From Escherichia coli (GTDB taxonomy: Bacteria; Pseudomonadota; Gammaproteobacteria; Enterobacterales; Enterobacteriaceae), in assembly GCF_003334305.1 (NCBI RefSeq), contig NZ_QOWS01000001.1: DNA of 64,000 nt; one strand, 5' to 3'. Both the position numbers and the translations under genes were made by a program. Positions within the stretch are counted from its first letter, which is position 1; the number at the start of each line of letters is the position of its first letter. This document shows, piece after piece, positions 3,001 through 53,431 of this stretch. The notes under the pieces were generated by a model. That model was not told where the DNA came from. It did not search any database and was given only the letters and a program-made list of their open reading frames with translations.

Positions 3001-3084
3001 GCGATGACTGAGTGGTGTTTTGCCTTTTTTATATTTCAGTTCCAGTTGGGCGTTATCCGCCAGCCACGGTAATTCCTTGTCCAT
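1..3084 (-). CDS. yehI: Large DUF4132-type protein, 3'-truncated by window edge (start codon at 3082-3084, reading frame open to position 1)
   Basis: Reverse-strand translation from ATG at 3084 reads MDKELPWLADNAQLELKYKKGK... with no stop seen before the window edge; it is absent from the ORF track only because it has no stop inside the window. Paralogous to the 1264-aa ORF upstream. Symbol inferred from remembered metG-molR-yehI order. Confidence 0.6.
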   Translation of the reverse strand, partial: MDKELPWLADNAQLELKYKKGKTPLSHRKWPGEPVPVITESIIQTLGDELLQKAEKKKNIVWRYENFSLEWQSAITQAINLIGEHKPSIPARTMAALACIAQNDSQQLLDEIVQQEGLEYATEVVIARQFIARCYESDPLVVTLQYQDEDYGYGYRSETYNEFDLRLRKHLSLAEESCWQRCADKLIAALPGITKVRRPFIALILPEKPEIANELVGLECPRTHFHSKEWLKVVANDPTAVRKLEHYWSQDIFSDREASYMSHENHFGYAACAALLREQGLAAIPRLAMYAHKEDCGSLLVQINHPQVIRTLLLVADKNKPSLQRVAKYHKNFPHATLAALAELLALTEPPARPGYPIIEDKKLPAQQKARDEYWRTLLQTLMASQPQLAEEMMQWLSTQARAVLNSYLSAPPKPVIDSTDNSNLPEILVSPPWRSKKKMTAPRLDLAPLELTPQVYWQPGERERLAATEPARYFSTESLAERMEQKSGRVVLQELGFGDDVWLFLNYILPGKLDAARNSLIVQWHYYQGRVEEILNGWNSPEAQLAEQALRSGHIEALINIWENDNYSRYRPEKSVWNLYLLAQLPREMALTFWLRINEKKHLFAGEDYFLSILGLDALPGLMLAFSHRPKETFPLILNFGATELALPIARVWHRFAGQRNLARQWILQWPEHTATALIPLIFTKSSDKSEAALLALRLLYEHGHGELLQTVANRWQRTDLWPALEQLLKQSPIEIYPARIPKAPDFWHPQMWSRPRLITNNQPVTDDALEIIGEMLRFTQGGRFYSGLEQLKTFCQPQTLAAFAWDLFTAWQQAGAPVKDNWAFLALSLFGDESTARDLTTQILGWPQEGKSARAVSGLNILTLMNNDMALIQLHHISQRAKSRPLRDNAAEFLQVVAENRGLSQEELADRLVPTLGLDDPQALSFDFGPRQFTVRFDENLNPVIFDQQNVRQKSVPRLRADDDQLKAPEALARLKGLKKDATQVSKNLLPRLETALRTTRRWSLADFHSLFVNHPFTRLVTQRLI

Positions 3085-3093
3085 GCTCTTTCC

Positions 3094-6000
3094 TTATTCA
3101 AACAGGGCTTCAATATCGTTAATTAGCTCGCTGGCGGTGATGGCATCGAGTACGGAGAACTGCGCTTCCTGTGTTGAATTACTCCCCCAGCCATAGCTTT
3201 CCGCTTTGCCTTCCCATAACCACAGCTTGCTTAAGAGCTGCTCAGCGCTAAGTTCGGCTGGTGACATACCCACCGCAAAACCTTCGTCGATTTCCATGAT
3301 TAACGACCAGCGACCCAAAGGTTTGATCATCCATCCGATCCAGCCTCCATCCTGTGGTTCGCCCTTTATCCAGCCTTTATTCGCCAGCCCCATGACCCGA
3401 CCACTCGGGCATTTTCTGCCTGCCCAGCGGGTCAGTTCACTGGCATTGTGCTCGGCTTCTGTCAGGGCGTAGCTGTTACGGTCGAGCTGGCGGAACGGTG
3501 GTAGCAGTTCGTAGTCGGCAAAAAGCTGACCAAAGGCGGCAGCATCCGTTGGTGATATTTCCAGAACGTGAGGAGTGCCGATAGAGATATCGCCTTCCGG
3601 CAGGGTGAAAAGATCATCGTCAGCGGTGCTGTAGCTGTTATCTTCTGCTACGCGAAAGCAAGCCAGTAGCTGGTTTTCGGCGCTATAAACGCCCCAAATC
3701 AGACGGCGGGTTAAGTGGCGAACCAGCGGATGCTCAACCAGGAAGAGCTGGAAGTTTTCCGGCGACCAGCGGCGGCGCAGGCACATGGCGGATTCCAGCC
3801 TTGCTACCTGCTGGGCGGCGACGGTACGCGCATCTTTTTTCAGCAATTTGTAGCGGTTAACCGCATCGTTCGACCGCGATTCATCATCGCTTTTGTTCGG
3901 TTTGGGCAGGTCTTTCAGGCGGCTGCCGGAAACATCACGCACAAACGGTTTTAAGGTTTCATCAAAGCTGACGGTGAACTGCCGTGGGCCAAAATCCAGC
4001 AGCAGCGAACCGTTATCATCCAGACCGAGATCCGGTGCTAACCGATCTTCAAGCTCCGCCACCGTGAGTTCGCGGCTCTCGGCAATGTCGGCAATTTTTT
4101 CTTTTGCCCGCTCCTGTAATGCTTTGAATTTCAGTTTCTGGGCGATGCCGTTAAGCTGCATAAGGGCGATATCACTACCGATAGCAGCGAGAATATCCAA
4201 CCCAACGGTGGCGCGTTTATGCTGGGATTCACCAGGCCAGGCGCGTATTAATGGCGTCAGTTTGCGGGCGGTGTCATCGTTACCGAGAACGCCTAACGCA
4301 GTGAACGCCCAACTCTCTTTCGACGGCGCGCCAGCGGTCTGCCAGGCGGTAAACAGATCCCAGGCAAATCCCGCCAGTGAGTCGGCGGAACAGACGTCTT
4401 TCACCTGCAATAATCCCGGATACAGAGCCTCTTCCTGAGGGAAGCGGAGCATTTCACCGAGGTGGAGGAGGGCGCTATCTGGCAGTGATTGGGCATTTGC
4501 TTTTAATACCGGGCGCGTCCAGAGCGATGGCTGATAAAAGGCCGGAAGAGTGGGGATTTTTGTCGGGTGATTATCTAAGGGATCGAGCGCAAGCAGAGCG
4601 TTCACCGCATCGGTTACTTCCGGCTGGTTATAACGTCGGGCGATTTCTTGCAGTAATGGCTGATGACCGTTTTCGGTAAGCATACGCAAGGCAGCGCGGG
4701 CGTTATCCTGTGCTTCACCGGCTTTGCCGAGCGCCGCAGGCAGCAGGCCGGTAAGGGCATGTTCCGGGTATTTCAACAGCCAGCTACGGGCGTTTTCGCG
4801 TAGCGTTTTCAGTTTGTTGAAGGCACGGGCGACGGCAGGAGCCAGCTCACTCGCTGCGAAGTAATTCGTGATGGGCAAGGCTTCTTGTGGATAGCGTGCA
4901 AGTGAGTTTACTAACCCAGGTAACCCTTTGAGTCCAAAATGTAACATGGCGTATTCGGTATCGGTATGTGGAGATAGGGTAAGGGCATTCCATGCTTTTA
5001 CTGCTTTCTCCAGCGGCAATGTTGTCAAAATCCCCAACTGCCAATAATGCCCGGTAGGTGAATGAAACACCTTAAATTCACTTAGTAAGGTTGAATAATC
5101 TTCATTTAGCCATGCCTCAACTACCGCTTCGGGAGCTTTAATATATGTACCAGCGATCCGTCGTTGAAAACCCATCCTTGCCAACAGGTTGGTAGTACTT
5201 TCTTCATGGCTAACCGTGATGTGTTTTGAATACCAGATATATTTCGCCAAAAGTTGATTACTGATTTCTTCTGTCAGATAACAGATTGGCTCAATGCCTA
5301 ATGGCGCTAAATCCAGCACCGGAATCGGCGATTTTTTCTTTTTCGAAAGCCAGGGAGGGGAGACTACTACGGCTGGCAGTAGATCGGCGCTGGCATGGTT
5401 TGAGGGCTGTGTCAGTTGTTGCTGGCATGATTTCAGTACGGCAACTGCGGGTGTCGAGAGCCAGGGAATGACCTGTTCTGCCAGTGCTGGTTGTGAGATA
5501 AGCATTGTCATTAGCATAATGCGCCAACTGTTCTCTTCTTTTTGCCCAAGAAGTTCCGTCAGTGCCGCCATTGCTGCATGTGGGAACGCAGCGCAGGCTT
5601 TCGTCATCCGATCGTGACAGCGTTTAGTATGCCCGGCTACACGTATAAGCAGTGTTAATGCGAACGGATGATTGATATGACGCAACACATCGGCGCAGTA
5701 GTCACTTGCGGCATAGGGAGCAAATCGGGGCAGGGCTGCAACACCTTGCTCCTGTAATACGGTGGCTGACCATATCGCACCACAATAGTAATCATCAAAA
5801 ATGGCATATGGCTCGTGATATTTTTCTAATGAGGCAAGAATGTGCTCATCAGTCGCCACTATTTTTAACCACTCAAGCGAGGGTAATTTTTTTTGCCCCA
5901 GTAGACGCTGGGCAATTTCATGTGCAATTTCTGGTTTTTCGGGTAATAACAAAGCAATTAATGGTTGCCGCCATTCTGGAATATGTGGAATTGCGGCAAT

Positions 6001-33389: not shown

Positions 33390-33803
33390 GATCGTATGTG
33401 CCTTTATGATTGGTCTGTAGATAGTGTAGAGCAGAAAACAAAAGGTGGAGTCAGAACAGGATGAAAGTCGGAGGATAAAAAGTCAGTTCAAGTATGGAGG
33501 ATTCAGTGGTTACCACCAGGAGCTTGCAATGGGGACAGCGAATACTAACGGCTGCCACCGATAAATTTCAAAAAAGAGCATATGCCTAATATTCAACCAA
33601 ACAGTGGCATCTTAAATATACTATTCCAAATATATTAAAGCCCCCATGGAGTTACCCTGAAGGGCCTCAATGTCCGTAATTCCTACTTATGTAGGAAATG
33701 TTGTACAGAACATTTATTATAATCCTATTCAATTATAATAATCATGCCATTATTATATTTAAACACTAGAGAGTGTCGTTGGTATTTAATGGGGGAAGGT
33801 GAG

Positions 33804-34385: not shown

Positions 34386-35399
34386 TTACTCTACTGTGGA
34401 CACTGTGTGGACACTCTCGGCCTCAGTACCACCTCTTAGCGGATTAAGAGAAATGGCGTCCTGAAGGTACTCTGGCGCAAAATGAGCGTAAACCATAGTT
34501 TGCTCAATCCGCGTGTGACCTAGTATCCGTTGTAGCGTGATAATACTTCCTCCATTAATCATGAAATGAGTGGCAAAGCTGTGCCTTAGTGCATGTGTGG
34601 CTTGCCCCATTGGCAAATCCGGTTTTATTGCTTTCATTGTTCGTCTGAAGCGAGGGTAATCAGCATCAGGGAATAAAAAACCTCGTTTGTTATCCGCGAT
34701 CATTTTGGCAACAGCCTCTGAGATCGGGACGGTGCGTGGTTTGTTTGTTTTCGTTTTAACAAACGTGACGCGGTTATGGATGATATTTTCTGCTTTCAAA
34801 CGAGCTGCTTCTCCCCAACGTGCTCCTGTACTCAGGCAAAGAATCGCAATCTTTTTATTGTCGCCGTCAAGTGCTGCAAGCAGTAAGGCAATTTCTTCCT
34901 GTGTTAGATAGCCTGTTTCTGGTTTTTCCTCCTTAAGCCTTTTTGTCCCTCTGATAGGGTGCTCACCAAAGAATAACTCCGCTTCAATCAGGGCTGTAAA
35001 CATGCCGCTAATACATGTTAAATCACGATTGATACTCGAAGGTTTAATACCCTGACTTCTTCGGGTGGCGCAGTACTGGCTGATAAGCGATTTCGTAATT
35101 TGAAATGCGCATGGGTCATTCGTTATTTTTGTGAAGATTTCAATTTTTCCAAGATTAGATTTCCCATGCTCTTCGTGTTTACCCTTTAAATCCCACCAGA
35201 TCTGTGTCAGCTCCGACAGACGTCGCTTGTCTGTTGGTTTTGATAGCCATTCTTTATTGTGGTGGTTGTACAACGTGTATTTCTCGAAAGCGACAGCTTC
35301 GCTTTTCTTATCAAACTTCCTACGGATGCGTTTTCCATTACGTCCAGTAGGGCGGATGTCCACTTCATATCGACCATCATCGAGTTTTTTGATTGCCAT
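34386..35399 (-). CDS. int: P2-like prophage integrase (tyrosine recombinase)
   Basis: 337 aa; C-terminal HALRHSFATHF...LGHTRIEQTMVYAHF catalytic box. Confidence 0.92.
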   Translation of the reverse strand: MAIKKLDDGRYEVDIRPTGRNGKRIRRKFDKKSEAVAFEKYTLYNHHNKEWLSKPTDKRRLSELTQIWWDLKGKHEEHGKSNLGKIEIFTKITNDPCAFQITKSLISQYCATRRSQGIKPSSINRDLTCISGMFTALIEAELFFGEHPIRGTKRLKEEKPETGYLTQEEIALLLAALDGDNKKIAILCLSTGARWGEAARLKAENIIHNRVTFVKTKTNKPRTVPISEAVAKMIADNKRGFLFPDADYPRFRRTMKAIKPDLPMGQATHALRHSFATHFMINGGSIITLQRILGHTRIEQTMVYAHFAPEYLQDAISLNPLRGGTEAESVHTVSTVE

Positions 35400-35514
35400 C
35401 AGAAAACCCTCCGAGTGGTGTGTTTTTTTGCGACTACTAATCGCTTTTTTCGTGGTGGCTGAAATTTAGCCACCAATAGTAGGCACTTGTGATGAATATA
35501 TTCACGATGAATTG

Positions 35515-35814
35515 TTAACCAGTCTTTTGACCGGAGTGGGGCGACGTTGTTTCGTTTTGCCCAAAGTGTGCGAGAGCGGGCGCAATTTGCCCGGACTCAG
35601 GAGCGATCTGATTGGTCATGAACCATAAAGTGTATTTGGTGAATTGTGGGGTCTGCAGGATGTTCATCATGACATCTGTTGGAGGTGTTGAACGACCACT
35701 TTCATAGTAACTCAGCGTGCCATACGGAACCCCTGTTAAATCAGCAAGTTGTTGTCTGCTCAAATACTCTGATTTTCGCATTAAGACTATCTTCTCGCTT
35801 ATCGTGTTTGACAT
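35515..35814 (-). CDS. C: P2-like immunity repressor C
   Basis: 99 aa with HTH (LSRQQLADLTGVPYGTLSYYESGRS); divergent from cox. Confidence 0.88.
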   Translation of the reverse strand: MSNTISEKIVLMRKSEYLSRQQLADLTGVPYGTLSYYESGRSTPPTDVMMNILQTPQFTKYTLWFMTNQIAPESGQIAPALAHFGQNETTSPHSGQKTG

Positions 35815-35928
35815 GGTGTTTAGATCTCAATAGTATTTAGTTTAGATGTAGATTGTTTAGTGCTTGGATGTGGGCACTAAAAGGCATTATAAGACATTAA
35901 ACGCAATTCATGAGGGCTAGAGGACGAC
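35815..35928. promoter_or_regulatory. Divergent early/immunity promoter-operator region (Pe/Pc) with direct repeats
   Basis: Direct repeats GTTTAGAT at 35818-35825 and 35840-35847 (22 bp centre to centre) plus further TTTAG copies, between C and cox. Confidence 0.6.
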
Positions 35929-36204
35929 ATGAGCAAGCAAGTAACACTCATGACTGATGCGATTCCTTATCAGGAGTTCGCAAAACTAATAGGAAAATCG
36001 ACAGGAGCGGTTCGTCGGATGATCGATAAAGGAAAGCTGCCTGTAATTGATATGACCGATCCACAATCAGCTTCAGGTCGTGCAGGTGAATATTGGGTAT
36101 ACCTTCCGGCATGGAATAACGGACTAAAACTGGCTTATGAAAGCCGCCCTAAAGAGATTCGTGACGGCTGGTTGATGTGGTTAGGTCTCGGTGAACCACG
36201 TTAA
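35929..36204 (+). CDS. cox: P2-like Cox (excisionase / repressor of Pc)
   Basis: 91 aa; first gene of the early rightward operon. Confidence 0.85.
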   Translation: MSKQVTLMTDAIPYQEFAKLIGKSTGAVRRMIDKGKLPVIDMTDPQSASGRAGEYWVYLPAWNNGLKLAYESRPKEIRDGWLMWLGLGEPR

Positions 36205-37696: not shown

Positions 37697-37968
37697 GTAT
37701 TCGTATTGAAATTGGCGAACGTTATGTCGTTACCAGTGACAGCTTTCAGTTTATTCTCCACGAGAAAAAGAGAGCGGAAAGCGGTAAAAACGCCGGTCAG
37801 GAATGGCTGGCGGTGGTTGGTTATTACCCGAAATTAAGCCAGCTCGTTTCAGGCCTGATGCATCACGATATTCTGACCGGAAGCGCAAAGTCTTTTGCTG
37901 ATTTAAACGTGCAGGTTGAGCAACTCAGCAAGCGTTGTTCAGAGGCTTTTGGCTCATATGGCCGTTAA
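37693..37968 (+). CDS. Small early protein (P2 orf83-like)
   Basis: 91-aa ORF overlapping the start of A. Confidence 0.5.
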   Translation: MSIRIEIGERYVVTSDSFQFILHEKKRAESGKNAGQEWLAVVGYYPKLSQLVSGLMHHDILTGSAKSFADLNVQVEQLSKRCSEAFGSYGR

Positions 37969-40243
37969 AGCCTCCGGGCGTTTTGTCCCTCCGTCAGCAT
38001 TTGCCGCAGGCACCGGTAAGATGTTTACCGGTGCTTATGCATGGAACGCGCCACGCGAGGCCGTCGGGCGCGAAAGACCCCTTACACGTGACGAGATGCG
38101 TCAGATGCAAGGTGTTTTATCCACGATTAACCGCCTGCCTTACTTTTTGCGCTCGCTGTTTACTTCACGCTATGACTACATCCGGCGCAATAAAAGCCCG
38201 GTGCACGGGTTTTATTTCCTCACATCCACTTTTCAGCGTCGTTTATGGCCGCGCATTGAGCGTGTGAATCAGCGCCATGAAATGAACACCGACGCGTCGT
38301 TGCTGTTTCTGGCAGAGCGTGACCACTATGCGCGCCTGCCGGGAATGAATGACAAGGAGCTGAAAAAGTTTGCCGCCCGTATCTCATCGCAGCTTTTCAT
38401 GATGTATGAGGAACTCAGCGATGCCTGGGTGGATGCACATGGCGAAAAAGAATCGCTGTTTACGGATGAGGCGCAGGCTCACCTCTATGGTCATGTTGCT
38501 GGCGCTGCACGTGCTTTCAATATTTCCCCGCTTTACTGGAAAAAATACCGTAAAGGACAGATGACCACGAGGCAGGCATATTCTGCCATTGCCCGTCTGT
38601 TTAACGATGAGTGGTGGACTCATCAGCTCAAAGGCCAGCGTATGCGCTGGCATGAGGCGTTACTGATTGCTGTCGGGGAGGTGAATAAAGACCGTTCTCC
38701 TTATGCCAGTAAACATGCCATTCGTGATGTGCGTGCACGCCGCCAGGCAAATCTGGAATTTCTTAAATCGTGTGACCTTGAAAACAGGGAAACCGGCGAG
38801 CGCATCGACCTTATCAGTAAGGTGATGGGCAGTATTTCTAATCCTGAAATTCGCCGGATGGAGCTGATGAACACCATTGCCGGTATTGAGCGTTACGCCG
38901 CCGCAGAGGGTGATGTGGGGATGTTTATCACGCTTACCGCGCCTTCAAAGTATCACCCGACACGTCAGGTCGGAAAAGGCGAAAGTAAAACCGTCCAGCT
39001 AAATCACGGCTGGAACGATGAGGCATTTAATCCAAAGGATGCGCAGCGTTATCTCTGCCATATCTGGAGCCTGATGCGCACGGCATTCAAAGATAATGAT
39101 TTACAGGTCTACGGTTTGCGTGTCGTCGAGCCACACCACGACGGAACGCCGCACTGGCATATGATGCTTTTTTGTAATCCACGCCAGCGTAACCAGATTA
39201 TCGAAATCATGCGTCGCTATGCGCTCAAAGAGGATGGCGACGAAAGAGGAGCCGCGCGAAACCGTTTTCAGGCAAAACACCTTAACCAGGGCGGTGCTGC
39301 GGGGTATATCGCGAAATACATCTCAAAAAACATCGATGGCTATGCACTGGATGGTCAGCTCGATAACGATACCGGCAGACCGCTGAAAGACACTGCTGCG
39401 GCTGTTACCGCATGGGCGTCAACGTGGCGCATCCCACAATTTAAAACGGTTGGTCTGCCGACAATGGGGGCTTACCGTGAACTACGCAAATTGCCTCGCG
39501 GCGTCAGCATTGCTGATGAGTTTGACGAGCGCGTCGAGGCTGCACGCGCCGCCGCAGACAGTGGTGATTTTGCGTTGTATATCAGCGCGCAGGGTGGGGC
39601 AAATGTCCCGCGCGATTGTCAGACTGTCAGGGTCGCCCGTAGTCCGTCGGATGAAGTTAACGAGTACGAGGAAGAAGTCGAGAGAGTGGTCGGCATTTAC
39701 GCGCCGCATCTCGGCGCGCGTCATATTCATATCACCAGAACGACGGACTGGCGCATTGTGCCGAAAGTTCCGGTCGTTGAGCCTCTGACTTTAAAAAGCG
39801 GCATCGCCGCGCCTCGGAGTCCTGTCAATAACTGTGGAAAGCTCACCGGTGGTGATACTTCGTTACCGGCTCCCACACCTTCTGAACACGCCGCAGCAGT
39901 GCTTAATCTGGTTGATGACGGTGTTATCGAATGGAATGACCCGGAGGTCGTGAGGGCGCTCAGGGGCGCATTAAAATACGGGCTGAGAACACCAAATCGT
40001 CAGCAGAGAAACGGAAGCCCGTTAAAACCACATGAAATTGCACCATCGGCCAGACTGACCCGGTCGGAAAGAATGCAAATTACCCGTATCCGCGTTGACC
40101 TTGCTCAGAACGGTATCAGGCCGCAGCGATGGGAGCTTGAGGCGCTGGCGCGTGGCGCGACCGTAAATTATGACGGGAAAAAATTCACGTATCCGGTCGC
40201 TGATGAGTGGCCGGGATTCTCAACAGTAATGGCGCGGATATAA
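37958..40243 (+). CDS. A: P2-like replication initiation endonuclease A (rolling-circle)
   Basis: About 761 aa from MAVKASGRF; HxH-type motif TPHWHMMLF and tyrosine pair GYIAKYISK. Confidence 0.9.
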   Translation: MAVKASGRFVPPSAFAAGTGKMFTGAYAWNAPREAVGRERPLTRDEMRQMQGVLSTINRLPYFLRSLFTSRYDYIRRNKSPVHGFYFLTSTFQRRLWPRIERVNQRHEMNTDASLLFLAERDHYARLPGMNDKELKKFAARISSQLFMMYEELSDAWVDAHGEKESLFTDEAQAHLYGHVAGAARAFNISPLYWKKYRKGQMTTRQAYSAIARLFNDEWWTHQLKGQRMRWHEALLIAVGEVNKDRSPYASKHAIRDVRARRQANLEFLKSCDLENRETGERIDLISKVMGSISNPEIRRMELMNTIAGIERYAAAEGDVGMFITLTAPSKYHPTRQVGKGESKTVQLNHGWNDEAFNPKDAQRYLCHIWSLMRTAFKDNDLQVYGLRVVEPHHDGTPHWHMMLFCNPRQRNQIIEIMRRYALKEDGDERGAARNRFQAKHLNQGGAAGYIAKYISKNIDGYALDGQLDNDTGRPLKDTAAAVTAWASTWRIPQFKTVGLPTMGAYRELRKLPRGVSIADEFDERVEAARAAADSGDFALYISAQGGANVPRDCQTVRVARSPSDEVNEYEEEVERVVGIYAPHLGARHIHITRTTDWRIVPKVPVVEPLTLKSGIAAPRSPVNNCGKLTGGDTSLPAPTPSEHAAAVLNLVDDGVIEWNDPEVVRALRGALKYGLRTPNRQQRNGSPLKPHEIAPSARLTRSERMQITRIRVDLAQNGIRPQRWELEALARGATVNYDGKKFTYPVADEWPGFSTVMARI

Positions 40244-40599
40244 TGACAAAGATTCACAAAGTAAAGCTGCACGCAAGATATTTCAACCTTGTGCTGGAGG
40301 AAAAAGAAACGCACAGAATTTAGGGGGATAGCCGTTATCATGTGTATGAAGCACTTGAAATGTATCTGCATCACTTGGGAGTGTGTCAACGGGGAATTTC
40401 CATCTATGTGATTTTTTGAGAGCAATGCAGTGAAGATAAAGATACTTATTATAAATCAATGTGATAGATGGTGCCTCGCAAACGTAAATGATAGTTTTGA
40501 AGCTTCAGGGCTGATGTCGTTCATAAGACTATGTTTACGCTATCATTTATGATAAAAATAATTAATTTTTATCATAAAGATTCAACAGAGGATATGTTG

Positions 40600-42105
40600 A
40601 TGAATCAACTAAAATCAATGAATATCAATAAGTTACTTTTGGATGTTGATAACCCTCGTTTCCCGACGTCAGCAGAAAATCAGCGTGATGCTATTGCCAA
40701 GATGCTTGACTTGCAGTACGACCGCATTTATCGCTTGGCTAAAGATATTGCTTCGAAAGGTTTAGATCCGTCTGAAAACATATTAGTTTATCCTAGTGAA
40801 GAGGAATCTGGCTTTTTCGTCGTTGCTGAAGGTAATCGTCGAGTTACAGCCCTTAAACTTTTACACTCTCCTAGACTTGCACCAACAGAAAAAGCACGGA
40901 AAGCTTTTGAAAAACTTAAGATTACTCAGCTTAAAGATATTAATGTTATAGATAACTGCGTTCTTTTTGACGATGATGAATATGAGCATTGGGTCAATTT
41001 AAAGCATACTGGTCAAAATGCTGGAGTTGGAAGAGTTGAATGGACTGCAACAGAAAAAGCACGACATCTGGCTAGGATGGGTAAGCAGTCATTTGGTAAT
41101 CAAATACTTACATTTATAGAGTTCAATACTGATTTATATAAAGAGATAATTGCTAAAAAAAGACTTTTAAAAATCACAAACATCACGCGTCTTTTTGGTG
41201 ATTTAAAGGTGAGGGATTATTTTAATTTAAAAAGCATTAATGGAGTTCTATACTCATATCAGCCTTATGAACGTTTTTGTGCACAATTAAAAAATATTTT
41301 AGATGTAATGATTGAAGAGGATGATAAAGGTAAGGCTTGTTTTACTGTTAATAGGATTCGTAGCCAAGATGACAGGGTTACATTTATTATTGAACAAAAA
41401 ATAAAACCTTCAGAATCTCTTTTAGATAAGCCGTGGAGTTTATTAGAGCCTAAATCTTTTCTTACAGAGAAAAAACATGATTCTATTGACAAAAATGATG
41501 CATCTGTGAGTGTAAAGAAAGCAGGTCTTTCAGAAGGTGATGCCTTAAAGAATACAGGTGTGGATAAACAGGAAGATGATTATTCTAGACATGTAGGCAC
41601 AGAAGAGAGTAAATCTAAAGTTTCGGGTACGGAACAGAATAAAAACAAGGGAAAAACTCCTCCTAAAGTAGATCGTAATGTGTTGGTGCCATCTTATGTG
41701 AAATTTAATTTTAGAGGGCATAAGAAATGCTCTAGAATATTTAATGAGCTTAAGTCGCATCTGACATTTGATAACACCCCTAATGCTATCTCAATATTGT
41801 TGAGAATATTTATAGATCTCTCTGTAAGCACTTTTGTTGAAGAAAACAAGTTACAATTTAAGGAACCACATAGAACTCCAGGGCTTCATGATAAGGTTAA
41901 AATGTGTGCTAATTTCCTTCGGGAAAATAAAAAGATGACGGGGAGTCAATGTACGGCTGTAATAACTTTCTCGAGCCAAATAACTAAACATGATGGTTCA
42001 TTGCAGCAGTATGTACATAACCCACACTTAATTCCCTCAAAAGAGGCTGTCAACACTGAGTGGGATAACTTTGAGTTGTTATTAAGCCTTATTTGGAGTG
42101 AGTGA
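40600..42105 (+). CDS. ParB/Srx-fold domain protein with disordered Lys/Ser/Glu-rich linker and uncharacterised C-terminal domain (cargo gene 1)
   Basis: ORF 40531-42105 (524 aa); likely start at 40600 (GAGGA seven nt upstream). N-terminus has DVDNPRF and VVAEGNRRVTALKLL, matching ParB box motifs; conspicuously AT-rich against the flanking phage genes. Confidence 0.7.
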   Translation: MNQLKSMNINKLLLDVDNPRFPTSAENQRDAIAKMLDLQYDRIYRLAKDIASKGLDPSENILVYPSEEESGFFVVAEGNRRVTALKLLHSPRLAPTEKARKAFEKLKITQLKDINVIDNCVLFDDDEYEHWVNLKHTGQNAGVGRVEWTATEKARHLARMGKQSFGNQILTFIEFNTDLYKEIIAKKRLLKITNITRLFGDLKVRDYFNLKSINGVLYSYQPYERFCAQLKNILDVMIEEDDKGKACFTVNRIRSQDDRVTFIIEQKIKPSESLLDKPWSLLEPKSFLTEKKHDSIDKNDASVSVKKAGLSEGDALKNTGVDKQEDDYSRHVGTEESKSKVSGTEQNKNKGKTPPKVDRNVLVPSYVKFNFRGHKKCSRIFNELKSHLTFDNTPNAISILLRIFIDLSVSTFVEENKLQFKEPHRTPGLHDKVKMCANFLRENKKMTGSQCTAVITFSSQITKHDGSLQQYVHNPHLIPSKEAVNTEWDNFELLLSLIWSE

Positions 42106-42174
42106 GATTTGTCTACATCTGGACATGGATGTCCAGAAACTGATAAACTACAAAATCAGGAATGAGAGGGATTT

Positions 42175-43059
42175 ATGAAATTTTATACTCCATTAAGATA
42201 CCCCGGCGGGAAAGGTAAGTTATCTTACTTTTTAAAAGATGTTATTGAAAAAAACTCGTTGAATGATGGAGCATATGCAGAACCTTACGCTGGTGGTGCA
42301 GGGGTGGCTTTAGAATTATTATTGGAAGAGTATGTCCGTAAAATCTATATAAATGATGCAGATTTTGCTGTTTATTCTTTTTGGTCATCTGTTGTTAGTG
42401 ATACTGATGAGCTTTGCCGACTTATTAGCCGAGCAAAGATAGATATGGATGAATGGTCTTTTCATCGCTATGTTATTTCGAATCCTTCTGAGTTTACTAA
42501 GCTTGAGGTTGGCTTTGCTGCGTTTTTCTTAAATAGAACAAATCGTTCAGGTATTCTCAAGGCGGGGGTTATAGGCGGGAAATCACAAAATGGAAAATGG
42601 AAAATGGATGTTCGCTTTAACAGGGCGGATTTAATTTCAAGAATTGAGAAGATAGCAAATTATAATCAAAGAATAGTAGTAACTAATCTGGATGCTTTGG
42701 ATTTTCTTGATGTCTTGAATTTTATGGATAATATGGGAAAGGTGGATAAAAATAAAATTCTTTTGTATTTGGATCCTCCTTACTATATTAAAGGGCAAGG
42801 GCTTTACAGGAATTTTTATGAGCATGATGATCATGTATTGGTTATGAAGAAACTCACAGAAATTAATTTCCCAAATTGGCTTGTTTCTTATGATAACGCT
42901 AAGGAAATTAAAGATATTTATAATGGATTTCCGCAAGTTGAGTATTCATTGCAATATACAGCGCATCTCAAAAAATCTGGAGAGGAAGTGATGATTTTTT
43001 CTCCTGAAATAATTATTCCTAATACCCTGAAAGGGGGCTCAATGCCAACTTGCGCCTGA
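42175..43059 (+). CDS. Dam-family (D12 class) N6-adenine DNA methyltransferase (cargo gene 2)
   Basis: 294 aa; motifs collinear with E. coli Dam: YPGGKGK (Dam WAGGK), EPYAGGAGV (Dam EPFVGAGSV), FFLNRTNRSG (Dam LYLNRYGYNG) and DPPYY (residues about 200-204); AT-rich. Confidence 0.85.
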   Translation: MKFYTPLRYPGGKGKLSYFLKDVIEKNSLNDGAYAEPYAGGAGVALELLLEEYVRKIYINDADFAVYSFWSSVVSDTDELCRLISRAKIDMDEWSFHRYVISNPSEFTKLEVGFAAFFLNRTNRSGILKAGVIGGKSQNGKWKMDVRFNRADLISRIEKIANYNQRIVVTNLDALDFLDVLNFMDNMGKVDKNKILLYLDPPYYIKGQGLYRNFYEHDDHVLVMKKLTEINFPNWLVSYDNAKEIKDIYNGFPQVEYSLQYTAHLKKSGEEVMIFSPEIIIPNTLKGGSMPTCA

Positions 43060-43206
43060 TTTTACTTATTTTTTGTCAGTAAGTAATTAGTTTGGTGCAT
43101 TTATTTGCATTCATTTTTAAATGCCAGTTCTGGTATCTAACATCAGTGCTGGCGCATTCTAACCATTACTGCTGCACTGCATTTAAAGCCCTGCATGAAG
43201 CGGGCG

Positions 43207-43225
43207 GGCGAGGCGGGGAAAGCAC
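43207..43225. other. Phage cos site (19-nt cohesive-end sequence)
   Basis: GGCGAGGCGGGGAAAGCAC matches my recollection of the P2/186 cohesive end; lies between the cargo and portal gene Q. Confidence 0.75.
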
Positions 43226-43393
43226 TGCGCGCTGACGGTGGTGCTGATTGTATTTTTTCAGCGTCTCAGCGCGTCGTGACGGCGCTTAGTCTGCCCGTTG
43301 AGGCGTTGTGTGTCTGCGGGGTGTTTTGTGCGGTGGTGAGCGTGTGAGGGCGTGATGACTGGGTGTAAAAAAGCCGCCCGCAGGCGGCGATGT

Positions 43394-44428
43394 TCAGCCG
43401 TTGTCAGTGTCCAGTGAGTAGTTTTTAAAGCGGATGACCTCCTGACCGAGCCAGCCGTTTATCTCGCGGATCCTGTCCTGTAACGGGATAAGCTCATTGC
43501 GGACAAAGACCTTTGCCACTTTCTCAATATCACCCAGCGACCCGACGTTCTCCGGCTTGCCCCCCATCAACTGAAAGGGGATGCGGTGCGCGTCCAGCAG
43601 GTCAGTGGCGCTGGCTTTTTTGATATTAAAAAAATCGTCCTTCGTCGCTACTTCACTGAGGGGGATAATTTTAATGCCGTCAGCTTTCCCCTGTGGCGCA
43701 TAGAGAAACAGATTTTTAAAGTTGTTGCGGCCTTTCGACTTAACCATGTTTTCGCGAAGCATTTCGATATCGTTGCGATCCTGCACGGCATCGGTGACGT
43801 ACATGATGTATCCGGCATGGGCGCCATTTTCGTAATACTTGCGGCGGAACAGCGTGGCCGACTCATTCAGCCAGGCAGAGTTAAGGGCGCTGAGATATTC
43901 CGGCAGGCCGTACAGCTCCTGATTAATATCCGGCTCCAGCAGGTGAAACACGGAGCCGGGCGCGAAAGGTGTCGGCTCATGGAAGGACGGCACCCACCAG
44001 TAAACATCCTCTTCCACGCCACGGCGGGTATATTTTGCCGGTGAGGTTTCCAGTCTGATGACCTTACCGGTGGTGCTGTAACGCTTTTCCAGAAACGCAT
44101 TACCGAACACCAGAAAATCCAGCACAAAGCGGCTGAAATCCTGCTGGGAAAGCCACGGATGCGGAATAAACGTTGAAGCCAGAATATTGCGTTTAACGTA
44201 AATCGGCGAGCTGTGATGCACGGCAGCACGCAGGCTTTTTGCCAGACCGGTAAAGCTGACCGGCGGCTCATACCATCTGCCGTTACTGATGCACTCGACG
44301 TAATCCAGAATGTCACGGCGGTCGAGTACCGGCACCGGCTCGCCAAAGGTGAATGCCTCCATTTTCGGGGCGCTGGCGGTCATTGTTTTTGCCGCAGGTT
44401 GCGGTGTTTTCCCTTTTTTCTTGCTCAT
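43394..44428 (-). CDS. Q: Portal protein
   Basis: 344 aa, P2 gpQ length and position. Confidence 0.9.
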   Translation of the reverse strand: MSKKKGKTPQPAAKTMTASAPKMEAFTFGEPVPVLDRRDILDYVECISNGRWYEPPVSFTGLAKSLRAAVHHSSPIYVKRNILASTFIPHPWLSQQDFSRFVLDFLVFGNAFLEKRYSTTGKVIRLETSPAKYTRRGVEEDVYWWVPSFHEPTPFAPGSVFHLLEPDINQELYGLPEYLSALNSAWLNESATLFRRKYYENGAHAGYIMYVTDAVQDRNDIEMLRENMVKSKGRNNFKNLFLYAPQGKADGIKIIPLSEVATKDDFFNIKKASATDLLDAHRIPFQLMGGKPENVGSLGDIEKVAKVFVRNELIPLQDRIREINGWLGQEVIRFKNYSLDTDNG

Positions 44429-46200
44429 CAGTAAAACTCCAGAATGGTGGATGTCAGCGGGGTGCTGATACCGGCGGTGAGTGGCTCATTTAACAGGGCG
44501 TGCATGGTCGCCCAGGCGAGGTCGGCGTGGCTGGCTTCCTCGCTGCGGCTGGCCTCATAGGTGGCGCTGCGCCCGCTGCTGGTCATGGTCTTGCGGATAG
44601 CCATAAACGAGCTGGTGATGTCGGTGGCGCTGACGTCGTATTCCAGGCAGCCACGGCGGATAACGTCTTTTGCCTTGAGCACCATTGCGGTTTTCATTTC
44701 CGGTGTGTAGCGGATATCGCGCGCGGCGGGATAGAACGAGCGCACGAGCTGGAACACGCCGACACCGAGGCCGGTGGCATCAATACCGATGTATTCGACG
44801 TTGTATTTTTCGGTGAGTTTGCGGATGGATTCCGCCTGAGTGGCAAAGTCCATGCCTTTCCACTGGTGACGCTCAAGTATTCTGAATTTGCCACCGGCCA
44901 CCACCGGCGGTGCCAGTACCACGCATCCGGCGCTGTCGCCACGGTGTGACGGGTCGTAACCAATCCATACCGGACGGGAGCCGAACGGATTCGCGGCAAA
45001 CGGCGCATAGTCTTCCCATTCTTCCAGCGTGTCGACCATGCAGCGTTGCAGCTCCTCGAACGGGAACACCGACGCCTTGTCGTCAACAAATTCACACATG
45101 AACAGGTTTTTAAAATCGTCGGCGCTGTTTTCACGTTTGAGCTGCTCAATGTCGAACAGCGTGCAGCCGCCTTTCAGGGCGTCCTCAATGGTGACAATCT
45201 GCCGCCACTGGCCGTCCGCACAGAGAAGACCTCCGGCAAGGGCGTTATGACTGACGTCGATTTCCACACGTTCGGCGGCGCTGGCGCGTCCCCGGTTGAA
45301 CAGTTCACCCGACCAGAACGGGTAGGCGTCGTGCGCCAGCGTGGACGGGGTGGAGAAATAGGTCGAGCGCAGGTGACTCTGTGAGGCCATACCTGATGCC
45401 ACCTTACGCAGTACCTGAAAATTCGGGATCCAGAAAATCTCGTCGACGTACAGGTCGCCGTTATGGCTCTGCGCGGTGTTGGAGTTGGTGCCGAGAAAAA
45501 TCAGTTTTGCGCCGTTATTGCCCAGGACAATCGGGTCACCGGTCAGGTCAACGTCAACCAGCCGGGCAAAGGCGATGATGTATTCGCGGAACACATACGC
45601 CTGCGTTTTACTGGCCGACAGAAAAATCTGGTTATGACCGGTTTTCAGGGCGCGCAGCAGCGCCTCGCGGGAAAAATAAAACGTCGCGCCAATCTGGCGG
45701 GATTTCAGGATATCGCGGATGCGGTGCTCAAGCCCGGCGCGATACCAGTGCAACTGATATTCGAAAGACTGCTCAAAGAAAATCTGCTCCAGCTTTTCGA
45801 TAGCCTCGTCGCTGAAAAAATTCTTTTTCGGTTTGCGCCGCCCGCCTTTGTTGCGGTTAGCGATGTTCGGATTAAGGTCTGCCTCGTTGCCGGTCTGGTT
45901 GTAGCGGTTTACCCGTGCCAGTCGTTCAATCTGGCGTCCGAGCAGGTCAATTTCCTTGAAGTCACCGCCGGTTTTCTGCGGTTTTATGATGAGCTGGGTC
46001 AGCCGCGCTTCCAGACTCATTTCGACACGGCTGATGGGGGCAACGCTGTCCCAGCCGTCGCGCTGTTTCCAGCTCTGCACCGTCGGGCGTTTCATCTGCA
46101 ACATGGCGGCAATCTGCGGCACGGAAAATCCCTGCCAGTACAGCAGCGCCGCCTGACGACGCGGGTCGTGTAAAAGAGTGGTGTCTGTGGTGATGGTCAT
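44428..46200 (-). CDS. P: Terminase large subunit (ATPase)
   Basis: About 590 aa from MTITTDTT within the 600-aa ORF; divergent from O. Confidence 0.9.
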   Translation of the reverse strand: MTITTDTTLLHDPRRQAALLYWQGFSVPQIAAMLQMKRPTVQSWKQRDGWDSVAPISRVEMSLEARLTQLIIKPQKTGGDFKEIDLLGRQIERLARVNRYNQTGNEADLNPNIANRNKGGRRKPKKNFFSDEAIEKLEQIFFEQSFEYQLHWYRAGLEHRIRDILKSRQIGATFYFSREALLRALKTGHNQIFLSASKTQAYVFREYIIAFARLVDVDLTGDPIVLGNNGAKLIFLGTNSNTAQSHNGDLYVDEIFWIPNFQVLRKVASGMASQSHLRSTYFSTPSTLAHDAYPFWSGELFNRGRASAAERVEIDVSHNALAGGLLCADGQWRQIVTIEDALKGGCTLFDIEQLKRENSADDFKNLFMCEFVDDKASVFPFEELQRCMVDTLEEWEDYAPFAANPFGSRPVWIGYDPSHRGDSAGCVVLAPPVVAGGKFRILERHQWKGMDFATQAESIRKLTEKYNVEYIGIDATGLGVGVFQLVRSFYPAARDIRYTPEMKTAMVLKAKDVIRRGCLEYDVSATDITSSFMAIRKTMTSSGRSATYEASRSEEASHADLAWATMHALLNEPLTAGISTPLTSTILEFY

Positions 46201-48363: not shown

Positions 48364-49107
48364 ATGACGAGTCCCGCACAGCGCCACATGATGCGGGTCT
48401 CGGCAGCGATGACCGCGCAGCGGGAAGCCGCCCCGCTGCGACATGCAACTGTCTATGAGCAGATGCTGGTCAAGCTGGCCGCAGACCAGCGCACACTGAA
48501 AGCGATTTATTCAAAAGAGCTGAAGGCCGCGAAAAAACGCGAACTGCTGCCGTTCTGGTTGCCGTGGGTGAACGGCGTGCTGGAGCAGGGCAAAGGTGCA
48601 CAGGATGACATTCTGATGACAGTCATGCTGTGGCGTCTGGATACCGGCGATATTGCCGGTGCGCTGGAGATTGCCCGTTATGCCCTGAAATACGGTCTGA
48701 CCATGCCGGGTAAACACCGCCGCACCCCGCCGTACATGTTCACCGAGGAGGTGGCGCTTGCGGCCATGCGCGCTCACGCTGCCGGTGAGTCTGTGGATCC
48801 CCGCCTGCTGACGGACACCCTTGAACTGACCGCCACGGCTGACATGCCTGATGAAGTGCGCGCAAAGCTGCACAAAATCACCGGTCTGTTTCTGCGTGAC
48901 GCTGGTGATGCCGCAGGGGCGCTGGCACACCTGCAAAGTGCGACACAGCTCGACTGTCAGGCCGGCGTCAAAAAAGAGATTGAACGACTGGAGCGGGAGC
49001 TGAAACCGAAGCCGGAGCCGCAGCCCAAAGCGGCCACCCGCGCCCCGCGTAAGACCCGGAGCGTGACACCGGCAAAACGTGGACGCCCGAAAAAGAAAGC
49101 CAGTTAA
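48364..49107 (+). CDS. M: Terminase small subunit
   Basis: 247 aa; basic C-terminal tail. Confidence 0.88.
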   Translation: MTSPAQRHMMRVSAAMTAQREAAPLRHATVYEQMLVKLAADQRTLKAIYSKELKAAKKRELLPFWLPWVNGVLEQGKGAQDDILMTVMLWRLDTGDIAGALEIARYALKYGLTMPGKHRRTPPYMFTEEVALAAMRAHAAGESVDPRLLTDTLELTATADMPDEVRAKLHKITGLFLRDAGDAAGALAHLQSATQLDCQAGVKKEIERLERELKPKPEPQPKAATRAPRKTRSVTPAKRGRPKKKAS

Positions 49108-52645: not shown

Positions 52646-53431
52646 TTATGAGTGATTTTTATTTGATGCTTTGTATTCTAAAACCTTCTTATTGGCGTAA
52701 AAGAATTTTGTATATGACAGGAATATAACCAGACCTGAAGTGAAATAGACGAGGGATAGTATTAATAATGCTTTTTTGTGACTGTTATTATCTTTAATCT
52801 CCTGGCTTAACCATTCGGAGTCCTCCTCGTTTAGCTGTAAGAGCTTATTGCAGGCGATCTCAGGAAGTGTGTCTTTTATAAATACGTTTTGCAGTTTCTT
52901 GCAATCGGCAAGGCTATAAGTTTTATTAAATTCAACTGCTTTATTTTTGAAGGATAAAAGAACTTTGTCACTATAAACATAGTACATCATGTTTTTATAT
53001 GGTATGCCTATGGCATCCCTTACTATAACGGATTGTTTGTTGTGTATGTAACATGCGAGGAGAATGTAAAAAATACTGGTCAGAATTACAATTATTGTTT
53101 TAATTATGTGTGGTGGTTTTGTTATGTCACCCCAGATGCGAGTAAGGAAAAAATACGATGTTTTTAGTTTTCCATCAATCAGTCCCTGCTGTATCATTCT
53201 CACATTTTCAATGCCTGATACATTGATTCCGTTAATTATTTTAAATAGTTGAATGTCGCGCCACTCGCGGTCAAGTCTTTTTAATTTTTTGTCTGAATAT
53301 CCAAAATTGAAATAATGTGCAATAAGCCTCATAAGGTTACTTTTACCAAAGCTAAAAAATGCTAATACTGCAAAGCTACAAAGGAAAAAAACGATTAGCC
53401 CCCACACATTAGTCACATTATAGCTGACCAT
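52646..53431 (-). CDS. AT-rich predicted membrane protein of unknown function, antisense to the late operons (cargo)
   Basis: 261-aa ORF between S and V; about three hydrophobic helices (IVFFLCSFAVLAFFSF, IIKTIIVILTSIFYILLACYI, ALLILSLVYFTSGLVIFLSY); Lys/Asn/Ile-rich. Confidence 0.65.
   Translation of the reverse strand: MVSYNVTNVWGLIVFFLCSFAVLAFFSFGKSNLMRLIAHYFNFGYSDKKLKRLDREWRDIQLFKIINGINVSGIENVRMIQQGLIDGKLKTSYFFLTRIWGDITKPPHIIKTIIVILTSIFYILLACYIHNKQSVIVRDAIGIPYKNMMYYVYSDKVLLSFKNKAVEFNKTYSLADCKKLQNVFIKDTLPEIACNKLLQLNEEDSEWLSQEIKDNNSHKKALLILSLVYFTSGLVIFLSYTKFFYANKKVLEYKASNKNHS

What the first reader, a model, noticed from the sequence alone, without database searches (positions are those of the whole stretch)
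43060..43393. cos lies immediately downstream of the cargo, placing the cargo at the extreme right end of the packaged genome
Seen in sequence: GGCGAGGCGGGGAAAGCAC at 43207-43225, about 150 bp after the methyltransferase stop and about 170 bp before the Q stop. Inference: the cargo occupies the last ~2.8 kb before the cohesive end, the same place old occupies in P2, consistent with cassette exchange at a fixed hotspot rather than random insertion.
Basis: partly seen in the sequence, partly recalled or inferred. Interest (0 to 1): 0.35.

Follow-up and report, generated by a model that had tools for sequence, protein, structure and literature searches.

The report
P2 prophage cos beside defence cargo
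The 19-base packaging cut site of a P2-type prophage lies right after a two-gene anti-phage cassette (PD-λ-5), in the published cos-adjacent defence hotspot between phage genes A and Q, so the finding is correct but ordinary.

Summary
GGCGAGGCGGGGAAAGCAC occurs once, at 43207-43225. There are 147 nt between it and the methyltransferase stop, and 168 nt to the Q (portal) stop. It aligns to base 1 of phage P2 (annotated cosL), and the 187 bases from it to Q are 97.9% identical to P2. The terminase subunits P and M are 99% and 98% identical to P2's.

The interpretation also holds. The 35%-GC cargo (about 40325-43093) fills the slot where P2 carries tin and old. By PADLOC it is the known PD-λ-5 system. 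In 120 independent loci with the same 19-mer, the cos-to-Q distance is fixed (136-187 bp in 88 of 97), while the A-to-cos distance runs from 0.9 to 5.8 kb, with 57 cargo types among 71 intervals. Of 5,426 complete E. coli genomes, 2,189 have the flanks and 22 have this cargo, always in this slot.

This is already published (Rousset 2022; Vassallo 2022; Odegrip 2006).

Refinements:
- Conserved cos-associated DNA reaches about -125 (phased TGCAY repeats), so the cargo ends only about 35 bp before it.
- About 9% of P2-like loci also carry cargo between cos and Q, the side P4 satellites use.

No virion-end data exist for this prophage.

The parts
37958..40243 (+). Gene A (replication endonuclease): conserved left flank of the hotspot
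   Evidence: phrog_91 'nicking at origin of replication', E=0. RefSeq annotates it as replication endonuclease. Homology to most relatives ends at 40210-40228, just before the stop codon.
40243..40324 (+). Truncated remnant of orf91 (DUF3850): left junction of the cargo
   Evidence: RefSeq flags a partial DUF3850 pseudogene here. Homology to P2 and YpM_50 stops at 40324, and 11 of 53 loci break at 40320-40324.
40325..43093 (+). Cargo-specific, AT-rich cassette (PD-λ-5 with its upstream region)
   Evidence: GC is 35%, against 53% in A and 56% in Q-P. It is present in only 22 of 5,426 E. coli genomes, always in this slot.
40600..42105 (+). PD-λ-5 component A (the ORF is open from ATG 40531; the likely true start is 40600)
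   Evidence: PADLOC PD-Lambda-5_A, E=5.9e-168, with the alignment starting at residue 24. The RefSeq start corresponds to 40600. No Pfam domain.
42175..43059 (+). PD-λ-5 component B, a D12-class N6-adenine DNA methyltransferase
   Evidence: PADLOC PD-Lambda-5_B, E=2.6e-121. Pfam PF02086, E=5.7e-16.
43094..43170 (+). Left arm of cos: GGTGCAT-N4-TTGCAT (TGCAT at 43096 and 43106) and CAGTGCTGGCGC (43144-43155), separated by variable spacer
   Evidence: TGCAY sits at fixed offsets -111/-110 and -101/-100 in 66 and 72 of 81 dereplicated arms, against 0-2 of 81 at control offsets. P2 and P4 have the same positions. A role in terminase recognition is inferred.
43171..43232 (+). [quoted passage not shown]
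   Evidence: Anchored conservation is 0.8-1.0 from about -36 to +26 in all three locus classes. BLAST homology starts at 43166-43179 in 104 of 120 loci and ends at 43228-43240 in the 35 loci where Q does not follow.
43207..43225 (+). 19-nt cohesive-end sequence (the cut site)
   Evidence: Identical to P2 cosL/cosR. Linear virion records of P2, Wphi, L-413C, fiAA91-ss, HQ103 and R18C start or end exactly here.
43226..43393 (.). cos-to-Q spacer, P2-backbone DNA that is absent from P4
   Evidence: 97.9% identical to P2. Conserved in the 88 loci with Q adjacent, but not in the P4-like loci or the loci with Q displaced.
43367..43388 (-). tQ, rho-independent terminator of the P-Q operon
   Evidence: GCCGCC-TGCG-GGCGGC followed by TTTTTT on the - strand. 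Corresponds to P2 160-181, annotated tQ.
43394..44428 (-). Gene Q (portal): conserved right flank
   Evidence: 339/343 identical to P2 gpQ. phrog_68 portal.
44428..46200 (-). Gene P (terminase ATPase subunit)
   Evidence: 587/590 identical to P2 gpP.
48364..49107 (+). Gene M (terminase endonuclease/small subunit)
   Evidence: 242/247 identical to P2 gpM. RefSeq annotates it as 'terminase endonuclease subunit'.

Best explanation
Window 43207-43225 is the cos site of a complete-looking P2-type (Peduovirus) prophage inserted between yegR and yegQ. After excision and replication as a circle, the P2-type terminase (gpP and gpM, encoded 1-6 kb to the right) should recognise a signal of about 150 bp (roughly 43083-43232). 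It should then make staggered nicks that leave the 19-nt sequence as cohesive ends. Gene Q then lies at the left end of the virion DNA and the PD-λ-5 cassette in the last ~2.9 kb at the right end. The cassette occupies the published gpA-gpQ, cos-adjacent hotspot, where P2 itself carries tin and old. It was most likely acquired by recombination between P2-like genomes. One crossover would fall in the end of A or the start of orf91, and the other in or next to the conserved cos DNA. Shown here: sequence identity, position, conserved flanks and variable content. Inferred: actual cleavage in this prophage, the terminase-binding role of the left arm, and the recombination route.
For: - The 19-mer is unique in the window and identical to P2's annotated cohesive end.
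- Flank identity to P2 is 97.9%.
- gpP, gpM and gpQ are 99%, 98% and 99% identical to P2's.
- Deposited linear virion genomes begin or end exactly at this sequence.
- The prophage has a full set of morphogenesis, lysis and tail genes in the near-identical strain A7.
- Cargo GC is 35%, backbone 53-56%.
- Different cargo sits between the same flanks in phage records.
- Among 120 metagenomic/viral loci, 57 cargo clusters occur in 71 intervals, and cos-to-Q is fixed in 88 of 97.
- 2,189 E. coli genomes have the flanks and 22 have this cargo, always in this slot.
- The same cargo occurs in prophages with different integrase/cox modules and att sites: yegR versus pflA.
- The literature states the same: Rousset 2022 and Vassallo 2022.
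Against: - No virion DNA ends were mapped for this prophage.
- In the RefSeq record of strain A7, Q is flagged as frameshifted because of one missing C in a C6 run at about window 43556-43565. The window copy is intact.
- The window's left arm lacks the -124 TGCAY copy, and its -20..-14 segment differs from the consensus (AGCCCTG versus ACCGCCC). That segment also varies among isolated, viable phages.
- The recombination route is not demonstrated by anything here.
Confidence: 0.93

Rival explanations
1. The site is a relic. The prophage is defective, so cos is never cut, and 'right end of the packaged genome' has no physical meaning for this element.
For: RefSeq flags Q as a frameshifted pseudogene in strain A7. 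The window ends inside gene D, so the right end of the prophage is not in the window. No virion data exist.
Against: Q is intact in the window (344 aa, 339/343 identical to P2). The A7 difference is a single base in a homopolymer run. All other prophage genes are annotated as intact, from int to ogr. The terminase is 98-99% identical to P2's.
Confidence: 0.05
2. The cargo arrived by an independent insertion (transposition or site-specific integration) that happened to land next to cos, not by exchange at a shared hotspot.
For: The cargo has foreign base composition and truncates orf91.
Against: There is no transposase, terminal inverted repeat or target-site duplication at the junctions. The same two junction clusters are used by dozens of unrelated cargo types. 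The cargo is never found outside this slot in 5,426 E. coli genomes.
Confidence: 0.02

Closest known systems
Bacteriophage P2 cos and the tin-old ('TO') region at the right end of the P2 map (AF063097)
   Same: The 19-nt cohesive-end sequence is identical. The spacing to the Q stop is the same (168 versus 167 nt), as is the tQ terminator. The flanking genes are the same (A/orf91 on the left, Q-P on the right). Non-essential anti-phage cargo fills the last ~3 kb before cos.
   Different: The cargo is PD-λ-5 (A plus a D12 methyltransferase) instead of tin and old. It is transcribed towards cos, not away from it. orf91 is truncated after about 80 bp. The left arm has two rather than three distal TGCAY copies.
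P2 gpA-gpQ defence hotspot (Rousset et al. 2022; 'P2 defence hotspot #1' of Vassallo et al. 2022; variable locus of Odegrip et al. 2006)
   Same: Same locus definition, same adjacency to cos and same cassette-like variability. Vassallo reports that four of its new defence systems lie between the replication endonuclease and portal genes.
   Different: Nothing essential. The text I read from Vassallo does not say which four systems are at this position, so PD-λ-5's membership in that group is shown here by context rather than quoted.
Satellite P4 cos and its psu-int hotspot
   Same: Same 19-mer, same core (-36 to +26), and the same phased TGCAY copies at -124, -111, -101 and -29.
   Different: In P4 the variable cargo (gop, beta, cII) lies on the other side of cos, starting right after about +26. 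The left arm abuts the conserved psu gene.
Phage pro147 (retron Ec48 between cos and Q)
   Same: P2-like backbone with an identical cos core.
   Different: It carries cargo on both sides of cos. Only 58 bp around cos is shared with the window, and Q is displaced about 2.2 kb. 9 of 97 Q-bearing loci are of this type, and the window is not.

Membership tests
P2-type (Peduovirus) cos site | 19-nt cohesive-end sequence GGCGAGGCGGGGAAAGCAC | tested here: met
   Exact and unique at 43207-43225. Aligns to P2 bases 1-19, annotated cosL.
P2-type (Peduovirus) cos site | Conserved flanking core shared with satellite P4 (reported by Ziermann & Calendar 1990, as cited in Rousset 2022) | tested here: met
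   The segment from -36 to +26 is conserved in the P2-like, displaced-Q and P4-like loci, and the window matches it apart from 3-4 bases in the tolerant -20..-14 segment.
P2-type (Peduovirus) cos site | Located about 170 bp beyond the 3' end of portal gene Q, with the tQ terminator in between | tested here: met
   168 nt here, 167 nt in P2. The terminator is at 43367-43388 on the - strand.
P2-type (Peduovirus) cos site | Cognate terminase (gpP and gpM) encoded by the same element | tested here: met
   587/590 and 242/247 identical to P2.
P2-type (Peduovirus) cos site | Cleavage in vivo giving 19-nt cohesive ends on virion DNA | not testable with these tools
   Only indirect evidence: deposited linear genomes of close relatives start or end exactly at this sequence.
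P2 gpA-gpQ cos-adjacent defence hotspot | Lies between replication gene A and portal gene Q, next to cos | tested here: met
   A ends at 40243, the cargo is 40325-43093, cos is at 43207 and the Q stop at 43394.
P2 gpA-gpQ cos-adjacent defence hotspot | Content varies between otherwise syntenic relatives | tested here: met
   57 cargo clusters in 71 intervals. 2,189 genomes have the flanks and 22 have this cargo.
P2 gpA-gpQ cos-adjacent defence hotspot | Cargo has anti-phage function | not testable with these tools
   Homology only: PADLOC PD-Lambda-5 A and B, E=6e-168 and 3e-121. Vassallo 2022 showed defence for PD-λ-5 experimentally.
PD-λ-5 defence system | Two adjacent genes, component A followed by a methyltransferase component B | tested here: met
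   Both PADLOC profiles match full length on adjacent, same-strand ORFs. B is a D12 N6-adenine methyltransferase.
Transposon or IS-borne insertion | Transposase, terminal inverted repeats, target-site duplication | tested here: not met
   Only short AT-rich chance repeats occur, and none bracket the junctions. There is no transposase ORF.

The most novel reading that the evidence does not exclude
The P2/P4 packaging signal may be asymmetric. It would consist of a long left arm with phased TGCAY repeats at -124, -111, -101 and -29 plus a CAGnnnCTGGCG element at about -63, and a short right arm ending at about +26. This ~150-bp unit would be the only DNA that must stay put, so cargo can be swapped on either side of it. 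The left side is used by most P2-like phages, the right side by P4 satellites and about 9% of P2-like phages. If the repeats are the gpM binding sites, the hotspot boundaries are set by the terminase footprint. Part of this was probably already mapped functionally by Ziermann & Calendar (1990), a paper I could not read.
Probability: 0.2. Interest if true: 0.3.

Novelty: already known. Interest (0 to 1): 0.1.

Why it matters
The finding confirms that this window holds a standard P2-type prophage with a known defence system (PD-λ-5) in the known cos-adjacent hotspot. That is useful for annotation. It fixes the virion genome ends, sets the cargo boundaries (about 40325-43093), and shows that the 147-bp 'gap' after the methyltransferase is mostly packaging signal rather than spare DNA. 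It adds no new biology beyond Rousset 2022, Vassallo 2022 and Odegrip 2006. The only mildly new points are base-level boundaries of the conserved cos unit across about 120 loci, and a count of how often cargo sits on each side of cos.

Tried and rejected
- **Insertion signatures.** I looked for direct or inverted repeats bracketing the cargo and found only short AT-rich chance matches.
- **Cargo outside the P2 slot.** I searched for the cargo elsewhere in complete E. coli genomes and found none: the same 22 genomes, one place each.
- **Domains of PD-λ-5 A.** Pfam and NCBIfam gave nothing for component A. Some RefSeq records call it 'ParB N-terminal domain-containing', which I did not verify.
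- **The 50-aa ORF 43195-43347 (+).** It spans cos and some phage records annotate it as a hypothetical protein. I rejected it as a gene because the curated P2 record has no gene there and the DNA is the packaging signal.
- **Terminator call at 43229-43244 (+).** A weak call. It lies inside the conserved cos core and is not supported as a cargo terminator.
- **Primary papers.** Odegrip 2006 (PMC1367236) is not held, and Ziermann & Calendar 1990 did not turn up among the four papers listed. Both are cited only through Rousset and Vassallo.

Full report
**Observation.** The 19-mer GGCGAGGCGGGGAAAGCAC is at window 43207-43225 on the + strand. It is the only match in the 64-kb window even with three mismatches allowed, against 0.02 expected from shuffles. 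The ORF 42175-43059 (+) ends 147 nt upstream. The ORF 43394-44428 (-) has its stop 168 nt downstream.

**Identity of the site.** Window 43207 aligns to base 1 of the P2 reference record AF063097. There, 1-19 is annotated 'cosL; left cohesive end' and 33575-33593 'cosR'. Window 43207-43393 is 97.9% identical to P2 1-186.
- P2's tQ terminator (160-181) corresponds to a clean hairpin plus T-run on the - strand at 43367-43388.
- Many linear phage records begin or end exactly at this 19-mer: P2, Wphi, HQ103, R18C, L-413C, and fiAA91-ss, where it is annotated cosR.
- The proteins that act on the site are P2-type. gpP is 587/590 identical, gpM 242/247 and the portal gpQ 339/343.
- That the site is actually cut in this prophage is an inference from these identities. 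No tool here can show it.

**Context.** The window is essentially E. coli strain A7 (NZ_CP028767), differing by one base over 6.6 kb. The prophage runs from the integrase next to yegR (window about 34386) to ogr next to yegQ, just past the window end. The window stops inside gene D. Apart from Q, which RefSeq flags in A7 (see 'What remains open'), and a small tail-fibre-assembly fragment, every replication, head, lysis and tail gene is annotated as intact. The order is int-C-cox-B-...-A-[cargo]-cos-Q-P-O-N-M-L..., the P2 map opened at att. After excision and cutting at cos, Q is therefore the leftmost gene and the cargo the rightmost. In P2 the same interval holds orf91, tin and old, with old starting 194 bp before cosR. 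One difference is that P2's old-tin operon is transcribed away from cos, whereas this cargo is transcribed towards it.

**The cargo.** PADLOC identifies the two ORFs as PD-Lambda-5_A (E=5.9e-168) and PD-Lambda-5_B (E=2.6e-121).
- B is a D12-class N6-adenine DNA methyltransferase (Pfam PF02086). It falls below the NCBIfam Dam cut-off.
- A has no Pfam domain. Its profile alignment and the RefSeq start both indicate a start at 40600, not at the first ATG, 40531.
- PD-λ-5 was discovered functionally by Vassallo et al. [quoted passage not shown] - The cargo is 35% GC, against 53% for A and 56% for Q-P.

**Hotspot test.** Phage records share the flanks but carry different cargo:
- retron Ec48 plus another reverse transcriptase (pro147);
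- Fic/VbhT (STYP1);
- DUF4209 (569R9);
- DUF4238 (pro483);
- an exoribonuclease pair (phage 899);
- DUF3850 plus a hypothetical protein (YpM_50);
- tin and old (P2).

In complete E. coli genomes, 2,189 of 5,426 hold the flanks, but only 22 hold the whole interval. The cargo alone is found in just 22 genomes, once each and always chromosomal, matching that count.

I then collected 120 independent loci with the exact 19-mer from IMG/VR.
- 97 have Q. In 88 of those, Q lies 136-187 bp from cos.
- 70 have A, and the A-to-cos distance ranges from 906 to 5,837 bp, with 62 distinct values.
- The A-to-cos intervals fall into 57 clusters among 71, and the window shares its cluster only with L090.
- The same cargo occurs in prophages with different integrase/cox modules at different chromosomal sites: yegR in A7 and KSC207, pflA in KL53.
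- No transposase, terminal repeat or target duplication brackets the cargo.

All this supports exchange at a fixed slot rather than random insertion. Rousset et al. 2022 concluded the same from 18,150 loci with 1,650 arrangements, citing Odegrip 2006 for the earlier suggestion.

**Junctions.**
- On the left, homology to other loci ends either at 40210-40228, the last codons of A (27 loci), or at 40320-40324, about 80 bp into orf91 (11 loci). The window has a truncated orf91 remnant at 40243-40324.
- On the right, BLAST homology resumes at 43166-43179 in 104 of 120 loci, which is 28-41 bp before the 19-mer.

**Extent of the conserved cos DNA.** A profile anchored on cos shows a core from about -36 to +26 (window 43171-43232). 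This core is conserved in P2-like loci with Q adjacent, in P2-like loci with Q displaced, and in loci with neither A nor Q. Of the 20 loci in that last class, 17 carry P4 psu and/or int.

Further left there are patchy conserved blocks.
- A TGCAY motif sits at fixed offsets: -29 (112 of 119 loci), -101/-100 (103), -111/-110 (90) and -124 to -120 (77). Nothing comparable occurs to the right of cos.
- After dereplication to 81 distinct arms, the motif is present in 72 (-101), 66 (-111) and 50 (-124 to -120), against 0-2 at five control offsets. A CAGnnnCTGGCG block lies near -63.
- P2 has copies at -123, -111, -101 and -29. P4 has them at -124, -111, -101 and -29 (the P4 offsets are corrected by 19 because that record lacks the terminal 19-mer).
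- The window has copies at -111, -101, -34 and -29 (43096, 43106, 43173, 43178).

Most of the 147-nt 'gap' after the methyltransferase is therefore conserved cos-associated DNA, and the cargo proper ends about 35 bp after its stop codon. That these repeats are terminase recognition sites is my inference. From memory, Ziermann & Calendar 1990 defined a minimal cos of comparable size, but I could not read that paper.

**Which side of cos carries cargo.**
- In 9 of 97 Q-bearing loci, Q lies 2.0-3.6 kb from cos. In pro147 the retron Ec48 lies between cos and Q, and only 58 bp around cos match the window.
- In P4 and the P4-like loci, psu is fixed about 167-177 bp left of cos, while int lies a variable 1.4-3.2 kb to the right.
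- 'Cargo at the extreme right end' is therefore true for this window and for most P2-like phages, but it is not a universal property of the hotspot.

**What remains open.**
- No virion ends are available for this prophage.
- RefSeq flags Q as frameshifted in A7 because of one missing C in a C6 run near 43559. The window copy is intact, and a homopolymer sequencing error is the simplest reading.
- The window's -20..-14 segment differs from the consensus, but that segment also varies among isolated phages.
- The recombination mechanism is untested. Rousset's own suggestion, cohesive ends acting as a recombination substrate plus a second homologous crossover, is explicitly speculative. The clustering of right-hand junctions at the edge of the cos core is compatible with it, but equally with plain homologous recombination in the only conserved DNA available.

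**Verdict.** Novelty: already known. Interest: low.

Noticed in passing
window 43556-43565 (C run inside gene Q): The window has one more C than the RefSeq record of strain A7, the only difference in 6.6 kb. In RefSeq that missing base makes the portal gene a 'frameshifted' pseudogene, whereas in the window Q is intact and 99% identical to P2 gpQ. A homopolymer sequencing error in A7 is the likely cause.
   Followed up: partly
E. coli records H76-H80, H82, H89-H91; corresponds to window 37958: In 10 of the 22 genomes carrying this cargo, the match begins at record coordinate 1742-1743, so the chromosome record starts exactly at the start codon of phage gene A. This looks like an artefact of assembly 'start-gene' rotation choosing the P2 replication gene instead of dnaA.
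   Followed up: no
L004 (phage pro147) 3243-5512; also L016, L019, L026, L028, L043, L049, L061, L080, L128: About 9% of P2-like loci carry an extra 2-3.6 kb between cos and Q (retron Ec48 in pro147). That puts cargo at the left end of the virion DNA as well, on the side P4 satellites use.
   Followed up: partly
window 43096-43110 and 43144-43155; P2 L002 7453-7479; P4 L132 11501-11528: Phased TGCAY repeats (GGTGCAT-N4-TTGCAT) and a CAGnnnCTGGCG element sit at fixed distances left of cos in P2-like phages and P4 satellites, separated by variable spacer. They are possibly terminase recognition elements.
   Followed up: partly
window 40546-40578: A perfect 14-bp inverted repeat (TTTATGATAAAAAT / ATTTTTATCATAAA, 5-nt spacer) lies just upstream of the likely true start (40600) of PD-λ-5 A. 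It may be an operator or promoter element of the cassette.
   Followed up: no
window 52646-53431 (-): A 261-aa ORF on the opposite strand lies between the tail/virion genes S and V. It matches phrog_2407 (unknown function) and has no PADLOC hit. From memory, P2 carries orf30 at this position, so this may be another accessory-gene slot.
   Followed up: partly
window 43195-43347 (+): A 50-aa ORF spans the cos site, and several phage records annotate a 'hypothetical protein' over the equivalent DNA. It is most likely a spurious gene call over the packaging signal.
   Followed up: no
L134 (E. coli MSI001) 1-3700: In one of the 22 prophages with the same cargo, the integrase gene is split by an IS66 element, so that copy is probably locked in the chromosome.
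   Followed up: no
L135 (E. coli KL53) 2652-4505 versus window 34386-36000: The same PD-λ-5 cargo sits in a P2-like prophage with a different integrase, repressor and Cox module, integrated next to pflA instead of yegR. This shows mosaicism of the early region relative to the cargo.
   Followed up: no
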